From NCBI RefSeq assembly GCF_032062105.1, contig NW_026938747.1, forward strand, positions 186,001-250,000: DNA of 64,000 nucleotides, written 5' to 3'. Positions 1-38,100 of the stretch are shown one piece after another. The stretch's first letter is position 1. Each line of letters starts with the position of its first letter. A program made the position numbers and the translations under genes. Source of the DNA: Saccostrea cucullata (taxonomy: Eukaryota). Under the pieces are notes generated by a model that was given only the letters and a program-made list of their open reading frames with translations, made no database searches and was not told the DNA's origin.

Positions 1-3000
1 TGAGGGGGCGTGTGAACTTTGACACAAATCGAGTCATTTTGGGTGGAATCAAAGACTTTATGGTGGAAATCAGAAGATGTCGAAGACTTCTATTTATAGC
101 TTGCGGGACGAGCTATCATAGTGCAGTGGCTGTGAGTTCTGGAAATTTAAATATGAAGATTTAATATAATTGTGATTACATTCCACTTATTTGTACAGAA
201 TCTTGAACTTTTCCATAAGTAAAATAATTTCTCTCATTCTTTTTTTGAAATCTGCCTTTAAATTATTTATTTATACAAAATTTTATTCACATAAAGTGAA
301 TGGGATTGGGCAGCAGGCAGAGCCTATTTTAGCCCTCCTCCTAAATTAAATTGTCATTGCAATATTAACGGAAGACCAGATAAATCTTAAGTAAAAGGAA
401 AAGTAACAATAATGTTTTGTTTATAATAAGAAACTCTCACAAATGATGAATGTTTTGTTTGCAGACAAGGCAGCTGATGGAAGAACTGACAGAACTTCCT
501 GTTGTGGTGGAGTTAGCGAGTGACTTCCTAGACAGACAAACGCCCGTATTCAGGGATGATGTCTGCTTCTTTATCAGCCAGTCAGGTATGAGGAAATCGC
601 TTACATACTGACAAATAAACAATGCAAACAGGTAAACAAAATGCATGCAGACAAGGTAGCATAGCATTTTCAGTCAGTTAGGTACAGATAGACAAAATAC
701 ATACAGACAAACAGACAAAGTAACATAGACTTCATCAACCAGTAAAGCACTGATAAACAAAGTGCATTCAAACAGACAGACAAGGTAAATCAAGACTGAA
801 ATAAGTCATTTCCAGCCATTTAGATAAGAACAAATAGTTGATAATCTTTGCATATATGTCTATAAGCTTTTCTTACACTGATCATTTTAAAGCTTACAGC
901 TTGTAGATGGGATGGTCATGCTATATGTTTTTTGTAGACTTAAAAATTATATGTCTTTGATATGTAATTTACTTTTCTACCTTTCGCAGGTGAGACAGCA
1001 GACACTCTGATGGCTCTGCGGTACTGTAAACAGCGGGGGGCATTGATTGTGGGAATCACAAACACAGTGGGCAGTAGTATTTGTCGTGAATCTCATTGTG
1101 GTGTACATATTAACGCTGGACCGGAAATCGGAGTGGCCAGTACAAAGGTATGTATCCAACTCCTGAAGGAACAACTGTAACTGAGAATTTCGTTGGTGCC
1201 CAGTTTTGATTTTTAGTATTTTGTTTTACAAATAATGAGGATTTTCTTCAAGTTGTGGATTACGTGCTTAATATAACAGTGTCAATGGCATTCATCTCTT
1301 CTTTCATTTATTCATAGATATTGATGATATAATCCTTTTGTTTATTTTAGGCCTACACCAGTCAGTTTATCTCCCTTGTGATGTTTGCTCTTGTAATGTG
1401 TGAGGACAGAATCTCAATGCAGGAAAGGAGGAATGAAATCATTCAGGGACTCAAAAACTTGCCAGGTAAGGGTTGGAATAGCCTGAGTGTAGAATTTGAC
1501 GTAAATGTAGTAAAAATGCTTATAAGGATGCACAAAAGTGTGTATTTATACTCTATTTAGAAAAATTTTTGTAAAATGAAAATTTTGTTGTGGAGCAAGG
1601 ATGCATTTATTTAAAATAATCAATTTAACACAATATAAAAAAAGATGCTAAATTATTATAAATGAACACGAATGTAGGCTTTGTAAAGAAATATGTATTT
1701 CTGTATTGATTTACTTTGGTTGTAGATCAAATTAAGGAGGTTCTGAAGACAGATGAACATGTTCACACCCTGGCCAGGGAGCTGTACCAACAGAAGAGTT
1801 TACTGGTGATGGGGAGGGGCTATAACTACGCCACATGTCTGGAGGGAGCTCTGGTGAGTACACAGTGTAAACTTCACAAAACACTTCATGATTTTGATAT
1901 AATTTTAAAGTTTACTTTCATGGATTGAATTCAGACAACTTTATCTCTTTTGTTTAACCAAGACAAAAAATACTGTACACATTTTTAAATTTTGGGGGTT
2001 TCCATATTTATTTAATACAGAAATTTGAATTTTTGGCACCAGTTTGAAAAGATACTTCATTTACCTGAAGACTAAGATTGTATATTCTCTGAGTTATCTC
2101 CCTCTTCCTGCCTTTAAAGACATTGTTAAACTCAACGATTCTTACACCCCTATAGTGGAAATTCAAATTTCTTTTGCACAGTATTAATAACAAAATTATG
2201 CTTCCAAATTTTCTCATTTACAAATCAATTTGTATTTTATGTTAATGAAATTAAATGAATGAGATAGAAAATTACATGTAACATACCCATTTACATTCAT
2301 TTGGTAGAAAATAAAAGAGTTGACCTACATGCACTCGGAGGGTATCCTAGCAGGAGAGCTGAAGCACGGCCCCCTGGCCCTGGTGGACAAAGCCATGCCG
2401 GTCATGATGGTCGTGACCAGGGACAAGGTCTACCCTGTAAGTATTGACCACTCCCCCAAACTGGTTGCCGAATAGAATATTTGCTATTGGTTTGCTCAGA
2501 TACTGGAATGATTAAGGCATTACATGTATCTTCTTTCATTAGGATTTTGAGATGTAGGACTTGAAATGTTTGCTTGGTATTAATTAAATGTTATTTATAC
2601 CAATAGAATTAAAGATTTGACAAACATTCTTTGTTTTTGTAGAAATGTATGAATGCTCTGCAGCAGGTCAAGGCCAGACATGTAAGTATTCTGGTTACCT
2701 TAGCAACCATTATCAATAGAAAAATATGAAAACTATGTACATGAAAAAGATTTTTTTTTATAAATTGTGAATGAAGTAAAATTTTGACTTTCTGAGATTT
2801 TTATTATAGAAATTATAGTCCATTGGATGTGTCGTTGCTTTGTGCCAGATCATTAACGAAAGTGTTATTTTTCACTAAGAAGGACTATACATTTACTGTA
2901 CAGTTATGTTTAATAACAAAATTTTACAGTGATTCCTTTTTCAGACAGTAGCCCTGCCATCAGGCTAGCACTACAGACCGCGAGCCTCTTGCCTGTTCTT

Positions 3001-35100: not shown

Positions 35101-38100
35101 CTAATTGACTTTCAGGAAAACAGATATTTTTAATGCCTTGTCGAGAACTTTTATGGAACATGTAGTGATTTGTCATGTCTTTCCTTCCGTCACACTTTCC
35201 ACTTACTGGTAAATGTTTGTTATGTTAAATACTCTGTTAACTTGATTGCTACCTATCTGTAACGTTAAAAGGGGGGCTACCTGGTTGATAATGTAGGGGG
35301 CAACCAGGTAATGTAGGGGGCATAAAAGACTGATTTTCTCCCAGGGAAAATCCTACTATAGGGTAGAATTGGAGGAATCCATTCCTACAGTACTTTTCAT
35401 TAACACTGGTACTTGAGTTTTGAAGTAATAACATGGCTACTGCTCATGCTTTAAGGTATATTGTATCTCAGTTGAGGTCAACATAATTAAACTACTGTAA
35501 ACCAACTTTTAATCGCATGCGAGAAATTTTCGCTACTGCGAATATTCTCGCCGCGAACCGGTTGTAAAAGTGTATATGTCTATTAACAACAGATACAAAA
35601 AGGCTTGATCGCAAAAATTAATCGTCGCCAACTAGCTTCTCCCTGGTAAATGGCGAAATAATGTCCTCGCGAATAAAAGTTGGTTTACAGTATATTTTCA
35701 TATTTTAAATAAAAATCACCTGGAAATGTGGATTGTCCTGATATGTAAGTTGTATCGACATTCTGTATGTGGATTTTCCTGATATCTAAGTTGTACCGAC
35801 ATTCTGTAGGTGGATTTTCCTGATATGTAAGTTGTACTGACATTCTGTAGGTGGATTGTCCTGACTTGTAAGTTGTACTGACATTCTGTAGGTGGATTGT
35901 CCTGATATGTAAGTTGTACTGACATTCTTTAGGTGGATTGTCCTGATATGTAAGTTGTACCGACATTCTGTAGGTGGATTGTCCTGACATGTAAGTTGTA
36001 CTGACATTCTGTAGGTGGATTGTCCTGACATGTAAGTTGTACCGACATTCTGTAGGTGGATTGTCCTGACATGTAAGTTGTACCGACATTCTGTAGGTGG
36101 ATTGTCCTGACATGTAAGTTGTACTGACATTCTGTAGGTGGATTGTCCTGATATGTAAGTTGTACTGACATTCTGTAGGTGGATTGTCCTGATATGTAAG
36201 TTGTACTGACATTCTGTAGGTGGATTGTCCTGACTTGTAAGTTGTACTGACATTCTGTAGGTGGATTGTCCTGATATGTAAGTTGTATCGACATTTTATA
36301 GGTGGATTGTCCTGATATGTATAGAGGGAAACATAAAGATGATGCCAATCCAAGCTTGAAGTATGCACAGCAAGTTCACACAGCCATCAAAAAAGCCAAA
36401 GAGAAGGGCAGAAATGTAAGTTTATGATATGGAATGTGTTTTTATATTTGTACATGTAGTATGTAATGGCATATGCAGCTAATTGCTTTAAATTCTGTCT
36501 GTTGATAATGTAAAAAAAAATTCCAAGAAGCAGTAAATTATATATTTCTTAAAATCTTATTAGAGACAAATTTAAAATTTGATTCATATTTCAGCCAATG
36601 TAAATGTTCTTAATCACAGTGCCTACTTTTGTCATATATGTAACAAAAAATGTTGCAAGCAGCAAAATATATGTTAGAAGTTGTGTTGTGTATATTTTGT
36701 ATACAGTTACAGAAACAAGATTTCATAAGTACATGTAATAATTATTATAACTGAAAATAATCTTCAAGTGCATCATATTACAGTGGACCTTCAGATATCC
36801 GGACACCAGATATCCGGATGCTTCAGTATCCGGACGATTTTTCATTAGAACGGAAATTTTAAACATTATTTTGTCTTATTTAACTGATAATTCAGATATC
36901 CGGATGCTTCACATATCCGGACAAATTGACTAGGAACCAAAGCGTCCGGATAAATGAGGCTCCACTGTACTCAAGTCAACATCTAGAAAAAAAAAATACA
37001 TGTTCTTTAGCATAAAGTCTGCTTCTGAGAATAAAATTTTGGTTCAAATTGCTACAACTTACCTTTTTCCGTATCATACTCTGTATGAACCCGAGTGGCA
37101 AAAGTCTCAGGATTGTTATTATTGTCTCAGGCTGATCATGATATTCAGGGAGATATGTAATAATGTATGCATTACCATTAACCAACTCTTATTTGAGTGA
37201 GAGAAATATCTGCAAGTAAGACTTCTGATACCGCATCAAGCATATTCCTTTTGGAATGCTACCATTGGACAAAGGCAAGATCAGATAGATTTTTGTATGA
37301 ATCTGTTGGGGATTGGTTACACTTCTGGATGGGTGCCTGTTAGGGGCACCTATAATCCCAGCCAATAGACTTTATTGTGTAGTGTACATGATGCAGTAAC
37401 TGTGATGTGTTTTCAGGTAGCAGCCTTTATGTCTGAGCCTTTGATGACAAGTGGAGGGGTGATTATGTATCCAAACAAATACTTGAAATTGGTTTACAGG
37501 TATGCAGTTTAGGGTGTAGCTAATGCATGTACCCATGTGTAGCAAGTCCTAGTAAGCACTTCTTATCCATTCCTATGATTTCTAGACCAGTCAAAATGTT
37601 ATTCCCACAATTTAAAACAAAAAACATTCATTGCATTTAAATTTCAAAGTTAAAAGTTTTGGAATGCCTCCTGAAATAGCATTTCTGTTTGATGTGGATT
37701 TGAAATCTTTGGAATGGATAAATAAGTTGAGGTCACAGGGGCAGAGGTGGATATGGAGCAGTGAAGGTAACGCGGTCCTAACTGTTCTGGTTATGATTAC
37801 AGATTGCAGGCTTTCTCAGTGAACCGTTGATGAGTATATGTGGGGTGATAAACCCACCGAGGAACTACTTAAAGTTGGTGTACAGGTCAGTCTGTAGATT
37901 GTGATGTACCCTAACTACTTATAGTTGTACACATCTCTTCACAAATCAATTGGCTTCCCTCAAAGTCTTTACAAAAAAACACTCATTTCATGGAATTAAG
38001 TGCACTGTAGGACATGTAAAAAACATTGAATTGCAGTTTTTATGATGTTTTATAGCTGAAGCGGTTACCTACATGTGTATACATGTAGTGACATATGTAT

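What the first reader, a model, noticed from the sequence alone, without database searches (positions are those of the whole stretch)
2948..37916. Two adjacent, unrelated metabolic genes share the same exon-duplication and RNA-structure design
Seen: both GFAT and the neighbouring ETNPPL-like gene have a duplicated exon pair near the catalytic site, a 300-390-nt intervening intron dominated by a long stem, and candidate long-range pairings. One pair is frame-preserving and shows the stronger duplexes; the other is frame-shifting (NMD-backed) and shows weaker ones. Inference: structure-guided mutually exclusive splicing, mostly studied in arthropods, may be a general and under-described way of making enzyme isoforms in bivalves. 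The adjacency may be coincidence.
Basis: inference. Interest (0 to 1): 0.7.

Follow-up and report, generated by a model that had tools for sequence, protein, structure and literature searches.

The report
Ancient swappable catalytic lid in GFAT
Two neighbouring oyster enzyme genes each choose between two copies of one exon, but only the first (GFAT, which starts amino-sugar synthesis) shows signs of a likely RNA-folding switch, and it also carries a second copy of its last exon, shared by molluscs and an annelid, that would replace the enzyme's catalytic lid with a version predicted to narrow the ammonia channel.

Summary
Both duplicated exon pairs are real. GFAT A/B are spliced either-or in RNA contigs of two studies, with no A–B joint. 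The PHYKPL/ETNPPL-like pair appears as alternative isoforms in oysters and a scallop. The claimed shared RNA design holds only in part. GFAT has a perfect 18-bp stem, constrained intron blocks and a borderline upstream duplex (2–6% of shuffles). The second gene's stem and duplexes are at chance level. The GFAT pair predates the mollusc–annelid split, so it is not bivalve-specific. The adjacency is old mollusc microsynteny, not evidence of co-regulation. Rbfox motifs (GCATG) after exon B recur in all 4 related loci and are a co-mechanism or rival. It occurs in bivalves, snails, octopus, a chiton and an annelid. It keeps the catalytic Lys but always has Leu for the channel-wall Ala. It likely gives an uncoupled or attenuated enzyme (untested). 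My paper searches found no description. The scan noted similar mollusc exon pairs and pairings in other genes before, but not in GFAT.

The parts
2643..2681 (+). GFAT 39-nt constitutive exon upstream of the A/B pair
   Evidence: spliced to both A and B in RNA contigs (loose ends)
2948..2985 (+). Box U, candidate upstream partner of box D; the pairing would loop out exon A
   Evidence: -39.1 kcal/mol; 6 of 100 shuffles; 2 of 200 with the MITE masked; not matched elsewhere among the listed hits; conservation not tested
3161..3608 (.). MITE-like repeat with 34-nt terminal inverted repeats, inside the U-D loop
   Evidence: I2; 39 other full-length copies among 40 candidates scored of 1215
4153..4247 (+). 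Constrained block before exon A: two GCATG motifs (4188, 4212), branch point CTAAT at -43
   Evidence: 0 changes in 4153-4235 in the X13 contig; a 13-nt stretch around GCATG is shared with L008
4248..4409 (+). GFAT mutually exclusive exon A (derived copy; last beta-alpha-beta and long helix of the second SIS subdomain)
4416..4505 (+). Constrained block after exon A: box D1 (4428-4441) and TGCATG at 4469
   Evidence: 0 changes in 90 nt in X13; collinear 4-aa match in a Crassostrea virginica-type read-through ORF P0016
4535..4696 (+). Perfect 18-bp stem, arms 4535-4552 and 4679-4696
   Evidence: single-copy; 4 of 36 arm positions differ in X3/X13
4694..4757 (+). Box D (4694-4730 pairs with U) followed by TGCATG at 4740
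   Evidence: 1 change in 4697-4757; 4-aa match in P0016
4795..4956 (+). GFAT mutually exclusive exon B (ancestral-like copy)
4971..4976 (+). TGCATG (Rbfox-type motif) 15 nt after exon B
   Evidence: GCATG also lies within 45 nt after exon B in L003, L004, L008, L009
5862..5875 (+). Candidate downstream partner of D1; the pairing would loop out exon B
   Evidence: -20.1 kcal/mol; 13 of 100 shuffles reach it, not significant
6647..6691 (+). GFAT last exon T1, canonical C-loop [14 protein letters not shown]
   Evidence: AATAAA at 7009
7344..7385 (+). GFAT duplicated alternative last exon T2, VDHPRGLLKTYTF*
   Evidence: acceptor and translation; identical to the tail of M. gigas isoform X3, P0030; 16 distinct orthologous tails
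23197..23255 (+). First coding exon of the PHYKPL/ETNPPL-like gene
   Evidence: matches the N-terminus of P0077
35728..36321 (+). 41-nt VNTR, 14.5 copies, repeating the acceptor and first bases of the exon at 36302
37417..37499 (+). PHYKPL/ETNPPL-like mutually exclusive exon A (83 nt)
   Evidence: P0162, P0163, P0165
37563..37721 (+). Imperfect stem of the intervening intron (27 nt, 81%); chance level
37803..37885 (+). PHYKPL/ETNPPL-like mutually exclusive exon B (83 nt)
   Evidence: P0077, P0161, P0166, P0168
43921..44227 (+). Last exon of the PHYKPL/ETNPPL-like gene, with an acidic tail

Best explanation
Both genes splice in one of two tandem exon copies, but they arose separately and likely use different safeguards, and the GFAT gene also carries an old duplicate of its last exon that would swap the catalytic C-loop. 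GFAT A/B duplicated once, before molluscs and annelids split. Because A+B stays in frame, exclusion must be active. It is likely set by Rbfox-type GCATG sites (after B, before A), helped by an upstream duplex (U-D) that loops out exon A, perhaps crossed by a weaker downstream duplex, as in Drosophila serpent (inferred). The PHYKPL/ETNPPL-like pair seems younger (seen in oysters and a scallop) and likely relies on splice-site competition plus nonsense-mediated decay of double inclusion, with no detectable structure. The two genes are neighbours through old mollusc linkage. T2 keeps the catalytic Lys and usually the Thr, but replaces the channel-wall Ala by Leu and the following Val by Tyr or His, and alters the last four residues. 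It is predicted to give a GFAT with poor ammonia transfer (an attenuated, uncoupled or regulatory subunit).
For: RNA contigs: X1 shows upstream exon-A-T1 and upstream exon-B-T1 with 0 differences. X13 shows upstream exon-A-T1 and upstream exon-B. No joint of any kind was listed in the 4 runs laid. A-only and B-only isoforms in Magallana, Ostrea, Pecten, Argopecten, Dreissena, Potamilus, Haliotis and Littorina. Both exons lie in tandem in L003, L004, L008 and in the Pinctada and Ridgeia models. The tree separates A from B (B clade 99/89). Steric or distant-branch-point exclusion is unlikely: branch points at -33 and -25, AG-free zones 40 and 36 nt. GCATG within 61 nt downstream of 3 of 4 MXE exons versus 1 of 18 other exons (p 0.01, window chosen after looking), after exon B in L003, L004, L008, L009 and after oyster COQ2 exon B. 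U-D: 2 of 200 shuffles with the MITE masked. L004 has its best upstream duplex at the same place relative to exon B (-70 to -114, versus -65 to -101). Net energies after opening costs are balanced, about -9 and -10 kcal/mol. T2: all 15 non-canonical tails among 22 distinct tails carry LLK. Tyr in 11 and His in 5 of 16 at the Val position. T2 ends complete 683-747-aa ORFs on 2.4-3.4-kb contigs, so these are spliced transcripts (P0024, P0065, P0070, P0220, P0221). The exon equals the human C-loop 670-681 plus two residues (PMC7000685, passages). The Leu-Ala pair contacts the channel Trp (PMC7948480, passages). The last four residues are needed for inter-domain signalling in Candida (PMC3224219, passages). 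Synteny: consecutive or near-consecutive accessions or locus tags for the two genes in Magallana, Argopecten, Mizuhopecten, Ylistrum, Ostrea, Sinanodonta, Littorina and Bradybaena.
Against: No compensatory change is shown for any pairing; U and the downstream partner were not covered by the laid stretch. Neither long-range duplex is in the MFE of 2860-5950. U-D is borderline in other tests: 6 of 100, 9 of 200, and 8 of 24 same-geometry tiles; 3 of 31 tiles. Several comparisons were made. In L003, L004 and L008 no duplex beats shuffles. The 18-bp stem arms vary more than their surroundings (4 of 36; two changes give G-U, two break a pair). GCATG before exon A is missing in L003 and L004. T2 was not seen in this species' RNA: all three downstream loose ends from exons A or B were T1. 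No T2 was found in the DNA held after T1 in L003, L004, L011 or L014. The T2 functional reading rests on analogy; the E. coli Ala602Leu result is recalled, as the paper was not held. Contigs drop rare forms, so a rare A+B transcript is not excluded. The younger age of the second pair rests on absence in sampled isoform lists.
Confidence: 0.6

Rival explanations
1. One reading: both genes use the same structure-guided switch (long stem plus competing long-range pairings), a general design in bivalves.
For: Similar intron lengths (385 and 303 nt). GFAT stem and U-D duplex. COQ2 upstream duplex 0 of 25 shuffles. Known pairings can be short and diffuse (PMC12772994, passages), so single-sequence tests can miss them.
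Against: Second gene at chance in all tests. Intervening introns are 677-1415 nt in L003, L004, L008 and 1658 nt in COQ2, so the short stem-dominated intron is not a shared design. GFAT pair is not bivalve-specific.
Confidence: 0.15
2. GFAT A/B choice is made by proteins alone (Rbfox and similar). The apparent pairings are by-products, partly of the near-palindromic TGCATG motif.
For: GCATG position is the only intron feature found in all lineages examined. The 4735-4748/4188-4201 and 4724-4758/4962-4996 duplexes are built on GCATG motifs and are not significant (30 of 100 for the first; energies). Stem arms are not constrained.
Against: Box D's core (4697-4730) holds no GCATG yet is constrained and matches in P0016. 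The 18-bp stem exceeds all controls.
Confidence: 0.35
3. T2 gives a fully active GFAT with altered kinetics or feedback, or serves mainly to change the 3' UTR, rather than an uncoupled enzyme.
For: Asp, Pro, Arg, Leu and the catalytic Lys are invariant in 16 of 16 tails; Thr or Ser is kept at the Thr679 position in 15 of 16. T2 combines with Cys-bearing N-termini in 21 of 27 models.
Against: Ala-to-Leu is invariant and Val-to-aromatic is universal at channel-lining positions, while the canonical tail is nearly frozen from bacteria to man. A UTR role alone would not keep this coding pattern.
Confidence: 0.35

Closest known systems
Drosophila serpent exon 4 bidirectional pairing (Yue et al. 2016, PMC4691838; abstract and one results section read)
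   Same: Two exons; one box in the upstream intron, two between the exons, one downstream; crossing duplexes each loop out one exon. The best GFAT duplexes have this topology.
   Different: serpent boxes are conserved across species and proven by compensatory mutants. Here only the middle boxes show constraint, and the downstream duplex is not significant.
Human SCN9A exon 5a/5b, RNA structure plus Rbfox2 (PMC12772994; abstract and passages read)
   Same: Duplicated exon pair with TGCATG motifs next to pairing boxes.
   Different: Tested experimentally there; here motif positions only, and the main duplex is upstream.
Oyster AOX duplicated exon 10 (Liu and Guo 2017, PMC5589949; abstract read)
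   Same: Tandem duplicate of the last coding exon used alternatively; the pair is also present in this genome.
   Different: AOX copies are the same size and described in one oyster. GFAT T2 spans molluscs and an annelid and replaces a catalytic loop.
coq-2 exons 6a/6e (Tan et al. 2020, PMC7434440; passages read)
   Same: Mutually exclusive homologous exons remodel a metabolic enzyme in molluscs and annelids.
   Different: Substrate switch shown there; no function shown for GFAT A/B or the PHYKPL-like pair.
Human GFAT-1 (GFPT1; PDB 6R4E; PMC7000685, passages read)
   Same: Same fold and catalytic residues.
   Different: One C-loop in every solved structure matched. GFPT is not mentioned in the main text of the human tandem-exon catalogue (PMC8373072, term search; supplements not seen).
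Human ETNPPL (PDB 6TOR) and Arthrobacter phospholyase (PDB 5G4I)
   Same: Closest solved relatives (E 5e-146 and 1.4e-78); PLP lysine motif kept. The exon covers the E-P-x-x-x-x-x-G loop of class III PLP enzymes.
   Different: The basic residues aligned to 5G4I Arg90, Lys412 and Arg414 (recalled as phosphate-binding) are absent in the invertebrate proteins, so the substrate may differ.

Membership tests
Tandem homologous mutually exclusive exons | Two homologous same-length, same-phase exons in tandem with intact splice sites | tested here: met
   for both genes
Tandem homologous mutually exclusive exons | Transcripts carry one or the other, not both (GFAT) | tested here: met
   two spliced runs show A-only and B-only paths and no A-B joint; contigs drop rare forms. 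Three ab initio-type models join both (P0001, P0033, P0219)
Tandem homologous mutually exclusive exons | Transcripts carry one or the other (PHYKPL-like) | tested here: met
   A or B isoforms in Saccostrea-type P0162/P0077, Magallana, C. virginica, Argopecten; database proteins only, no reads laid
Docking/selector or bidirectional RNA-pairing MXE (serpent type) | Complementary boxes beyond chance around each exon | tested here: inconclusive
   GFAT upstream duplex 2 of 200 to 6 of 100, downstream 13 of 100
Docking/selector or bidirectional RNA-pairing MXE (serpent type) | Same feature for the PHYKPL-like pair | tested here: not met
   chance level on the single sequence; conservation not examined
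Docking/selector or bidirectional RNA-pairing MXE (serpent type) | Boxes conserved across species with compensatory changes | tested here: inconclusive
   middle boxes constrained; partners not covered; no covariation seen
Docking/selector or bidirectional RNA-pairing MXE (serpent type) | Disruptive and compensatory mutants change and restore exon choice | not testable with these tools
   needs minigenes
Steric / distant-branch-point MXE (OGDH type; PMC7969005, abstract read) | Branch point close to the upstream 5' splice site, long AG-free zone | tested here: not met
   branch points -33 and -25, AG-free zones 40 and 36 nt
NMD-backed MXE | Double inclusion makes a premature stop well upstream of the last junction | tested here: met
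   PHYKPL-like only; decay itself not tested. GFAT double inclusion is in frame
Rbfox-regulated exon pairs | Conserved (U)GCAUG next to the exons | tested here: met
   binding and knock-down effect not testable here
Duplicated alternative last exons (oyster AOX type) | Homologous second terminal exon with its own acceptor and stop, downstream of a poly(A) signal | tested here: met
Duplicated alternative last exons (oyster AOX type) | Used in mRNA of this species | tested here: inconclusive
   only T1; T2 in transcript-sized contigs of other animals
ETNPPL/PHYKPL phospho-lyases | Basic residues of the substrate-phosphate pocket (role recalled) | tested here: not met
   Arg to Gly, and Lys-x-Lys/Arg to uncharged residues

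The most novel reading that the evidence does not exclude
Molluscs and annelids have kept, since their common ancestor, a modular GFAT gene in which splicing swaps the catalytic C-loop for a channel-blocking version, swaps the helix beneath it, and can drop the catalytic N-terminal Cys. One gene would thus make the normal hexosamine-pathway entry enzyme and also natural uncoupled forms (glutaminase/isomerase-only, ammonia-using or dominant-negative subunits) that throttle or redirect flux to chitin and glycans. Exon choice would be set by Rbfox together with a serpent-type RNA switch.
Probability: 0.35. Interest if true: 0.78.

Novelty: new variant of a known kind. Interest (0 to 1): 0.6.

Why it matters
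GFAT is the rate-limiting step to UDP-GlcNAc, which feeds glycosylation and chitin. Its C-loop closes the sugar site and lines the ammonia channel, and is nearly invariant from bacteria to man. A natural, long-conserved alternative C-loop gives a ready test of how the channel couples the two active sites, and suggests a splice-level throttle on the pathway in shell- and chitin-making animals. The GFAT A/B pair, in frame and so without decay as a backstop, is a good place to test RNA-pairing and Rbfox control outside arthropods and vertebrates. The broader claim of a shared bivalve design is not established.

Tried and rejected
An unpenalised duplex search ran into long meaningless pairings and was replaced by a length-penalised one. 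Candidate pairings 37512-37550/37309-37351 and 37500-37528/37892-37924 for the second gene are at chance or weak (-14.7 kcal/mol). The idea that the 18-bp stem is a transposon remnant found no support: one match only in the genome (such a search does not prove rarity). Distant branch point and steric exclusion were rejected. A search for more internal pairs in this genome by family (AOX, UbiA, Acyl-CoA_ox_N, ATE_C, PGM_PMM_I, PK; 20 stretches of those genes and 2 upstream of GFAT fetched) gave COQ2 and AOX only. My exon-pair finder missed both of these, so its blanks for ATE1, ACOX, PK and PGM mean nothing. A single-sequence fold of P0030 failed (pLDDT 33). With a 60-row alignment the fold was good (76.3) but the T2 tail was below 50, as were other loops, so it says nothing on T2. 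No complex was predicted. Papers not held: Floquet 2007, the ETNPPL structure paper, Yue 2017 on MRP1; one recalled id was an unrelated paper. Runs X3 and X7 are unspliced and say nothing on splicing. Contig depths were not used as expression levels.
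Full report
SETTING. The window is G000:C20884:186001-250000. The second gene's exon at 43395-43640 matches a RefSeq protein of Saccostrea cucullata at 100%, on a contig of the same length. The genome holds one GFAT copy by exon B search (2 matches, the two exons).

1. OBSERVATION. GFAT (+ strand) has exons A 4248-4409 and B 4795-4956: 162 nt, phase 0, 32 of 54 residues identical. The neighbour, named 5-phosphohydroxy-L-lysine phospho-lyase-like in RefSeq, starts at 23197 and has exons A 37417-37499 and B 37803-37885: 83 nt, 17 of 27 residues identical. 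Intervening introns are 385 and 303 nt. Double inclusion is in frame for GFAT and gives a stop in exon B for the second gene. The GFAT intron holds a perfect 18-bp stem that exceeds 60 of 60 shuffles, 10 of 10 control introns and 36 of 36 tiles; MFE z -2.15. The second intron does not stand out: 11 bp, z -0.57. Two of the ten control introns had z-scores as low as or lower than about -2.1.

2. ARE THEY MUTUALLY EXCLUSIVE? Four runs were laid on 4030-5640. X1 gave two contigs, identical to the window, covering exactly exon A and exactly exon B, each flanked by the upstream 39-nt exon and by the canonical last exon. X13 gave upstream-A-last and upstream-B. No joints were listed. X3 and X7 are unspliced. 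Database isoforms carry A or B in oysters, scallops, Dreissena, Potamilus, Haliotis and Littorina; three gene models string both together. For the second gene, A or B isoforms occur in the Saccostrea-type pair P0162/P0077, Magallana, C. virginica and Argopecten. Only one form per species was seen in the listed Mytilus, snail, chiton and Lingula proteins, which is weak evidence of absence.

3. AGE AND ADJACENCY. A 54-row tree of the GFAT exon puts first copies from bivalves, snails, cephalopods, a chiton, tubeworms and L003/L004/L008 on one side, and second copies with unduplicated outgroups on the other (99/89; 54 columns only; the Dermatophagoides row was left out). So the duplication happened once, before the mollusc-annelid split, and B is the ancestral-like copy. 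Consecutive or near-consecutive accessions or locus tags place the two genes side by side in Magallana, Ostrea, Argopecten, Mizuhopecten, Ylistrum, Sinanodonta, Littorina and Bradybaena (inferred from numbering). The linkage therefore appears older than the second gene's duplication. Co-regulation was not tested.

4. RNA STRUCTURE. With a length-penalised duplex search and local dinucleotide shuffles, the best GFAT upstream duplex is U 2948-2985 with D 4694-4730 (-39.1 kcal/mol; 6 of 100 shuffles). With the MITE masked it is 2 of 200, and 3 of 31 control tiles reach it. An alignment-score version gave 9 of 200 and 8 of 24 tiles. The best downstream duplex, 4428-4441 with 5862-5875, is reached by 13 of 100. 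The two cross, as in serpent (PMC4691838, section read), and are balanced after opening costs (about -9 and -10 kcal/mol). Neither is in the MFE of 2860-5950. In the divergent lineage of X13, whose difference lists are complete for these pieces, 4153-4235 and 4416-4505 have 0 changes and 4697-4757 has 1, against 37 in 505 nt downstream (p 0.002, 0.001, 0.056; blocks picked after looking and near splice sites). The stem arms have 4 in 36, two of them breaking a pair. A read-through ORF of C. virginica type (P0016) keeps two collinear 4-residue matches, at the TGCATG block and at the core of D (3 word hits in all; 30 of 500 shuffles reach that). L004's best upstream duplex sits at the same distance from exon B, but no duplex in L003, L004 or L008 beats shuffles. 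For the second gene every test is at chance. COQ2, the one other internal pair I found in this genome, has an upstream duplex reached by 0 of 25 shuffles and a downstream one by 6 of 25. Verdict: suggestive for GFAT, unsupported for its neighbour.

5. A CO-MECHANISM. GCATG lies within 61 nt downstream of 3 of 4 alternative exons and 1 of 18 other exons in the two genes (p 0.01, post hoc). It follows exon B within 45 nt in L003, L004, L008 and L009, and precedes exon A in the window and L008 but not in L003 or L004. (U)GCAUG is the Rbfox motif and acts with RNA structure on duplicated SCN exons (PMC12772994, passages). That downstream sites activate and upstream sites repress is recalled. Distant branch points are excluded.

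6. At 7344-7385, past the canonical last exon and an AATAAA at 7009, lies a second last exon reading VDHPRGLLKTYTF*, identical to the tail of M. gigas isoform X3. Orthologous tails occur in Ostrea, scallops, Mercenaria, Dreissena, Potamilus, Arion, Littorina, three octopuses, Liolophura and the annelid Ridgeia; 27 of 112 classified full-length models use one. Of 22 distinct tails collected without selecting for the motif, 7 are canonical NLAK and all other 15 read LLK. Over 16 such tails Asp, Pro, Arg, Leu, Leu and Lys are invariant and the Val becomes Tyr (11) or His (5). The exon is the C-loop (human 670-681) that covers the sugar site and carries Lys676 and Thr679 (PMC7000685, passages). 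Its Leu-Ala pair contacts the channel Trp (PMC7948480, passages), and the last four residues are needed for inter-domain signalling in Candida (PMC3224219, passages). Counting back from the C-terminus, the changes fall on E. coli Ala602 and Val605. I recall that Ala602Leu and Val605Leu were engineered to obstruct the channel and lowered ammonia transfer (Floquet 2007; only its title was seen; not held). Hence the prediction of an uncoupled or attenuated form. Limits: T2 was not seen in this species' RNA, not found in the DNA held after T1 in four metagenome loci, and the fold gave no information on the tail. An alternative first exon that omits the catalytic Cys adds a third module.

7. THE SECOND ENZYME. 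Its exon covers the E-P-x-x-x-x-x-G loop after the strand before the PLP-binding Asp. The residues aligned to Arg90, Lys412 and Arg414 of PDB 5G4I are uncharged throughout the 17-row invertebrate alignment (one row, P0085, is poorly modelled at the first site). Their role in phosphate binding is recalled, so the name is by similarity only. The two exons likely tune substrate preference (inferred).

8. NOVELTY. Mutually exclusive and duplicated last exons in mollusc enzymes are known (coq-2, PMC7434440, passages; AOX, PMC5589949, abstract; OGDH and ACOX1 in PMC8373072, passages). RNA-pairing control is known from insects and man (PMC4691838; PMC6071210, passages). Yue 2017 on MRP1 may already cover molluscs and was not held. 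Searches for GFAT with mutually exclusive exons, an alternative last exon, or mollusc alternative splicing returned 0, 0 and 1 papers, the last a crustacean chitin review seen only as a listing. Searches on oyster or mollusc MXE structure returned nothing on these genes in their listings. The isoforms exist as automatic RefSeq models. Subscription papers and supplements were not searched. The scan's own notes hold similar mollusc pairs and pairings in other genes but no GFAT case; the AIFM3 note gave the AOX lead.

9. VERDICT. Observation partly confirmed; interpretation partly supported. The finding as worded (shared RNA design) is worth about 0.35. The GFAT gene with its ancient alternative catalytic loop raises it to 0.6, as a new variant of a known kind.

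Noticed in passing
G000:C20884 about 172200 and 173722-173752 (L080, upstream of the window): GFAT has two alternative first exons: one gives the canonical Met-Cys start, the other a 10-residue leader without the catalytic Cys, similar in Saccostrea, Magallana and C. virginica models. 30 of 112 classified models lack the Cys; clam and scallop leaders are unrelated in sequence. It would be glutaminase-dead if translated as modelled.
   Followed up: partly
window 35728-36321: 41-nt VNTR (14.5 copies) repeats the acceptor of the exon at 36302; each unit also contains GTAAGT and a CTGAC branch-like motif. Reading on from an upstream copy meets a stop within seven codons.
   Followed up: partly
window 23197-44227: The 'ETNPPL-like' protein belongs to an invertebrate subfamily (molluscs, Lingula, crab) with an acidic tail ending in a basic motif, and lacks the basic residues aligned to the phospholyase phosphate pocket. 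Its substrate is probably not a phospho-amino alcohol.
   Followed up: partly
window 3161-3608: Young MITE-like element, 93-99% identical to 39 other listed copies.
   Followed up: partly
L071 (G000:C23704, minus strand): Oyster COQ2 exon pair with a 1658-nt intervening intron; upstream duplex -24.1 kcal/mol (0 of 25 shuffles), four GCATG clustered nearby and TGCATG right after the second exon.
   Followed up: partly
L070:5819-6106 (G000:C22542): AOX duplicated last exons, each with its own stop, as published for C. virginica.
   Followed up: partly
L011, L013, L014: Intron-bearing GFAT loci with a single B-type exon between the flanking exons, possibly a lineage that lost or never had A.
   Followed up: no
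window 52750-53304 and 59497-60195: G-protein alpha subunit (G12/13-like by its reading; label from recall) downstream of the second gene.
   Followed up: no
window 18615-19727, 24268-25293, 40395-40754: Tandem arrays with 162-, 166- and 45-nt units.
   Followed up: no
P0040 (Ostrea edulis isoform X12): Model that ends five residues after the 39-nt exon, skipping A, B and both tails.
   Followed up: no
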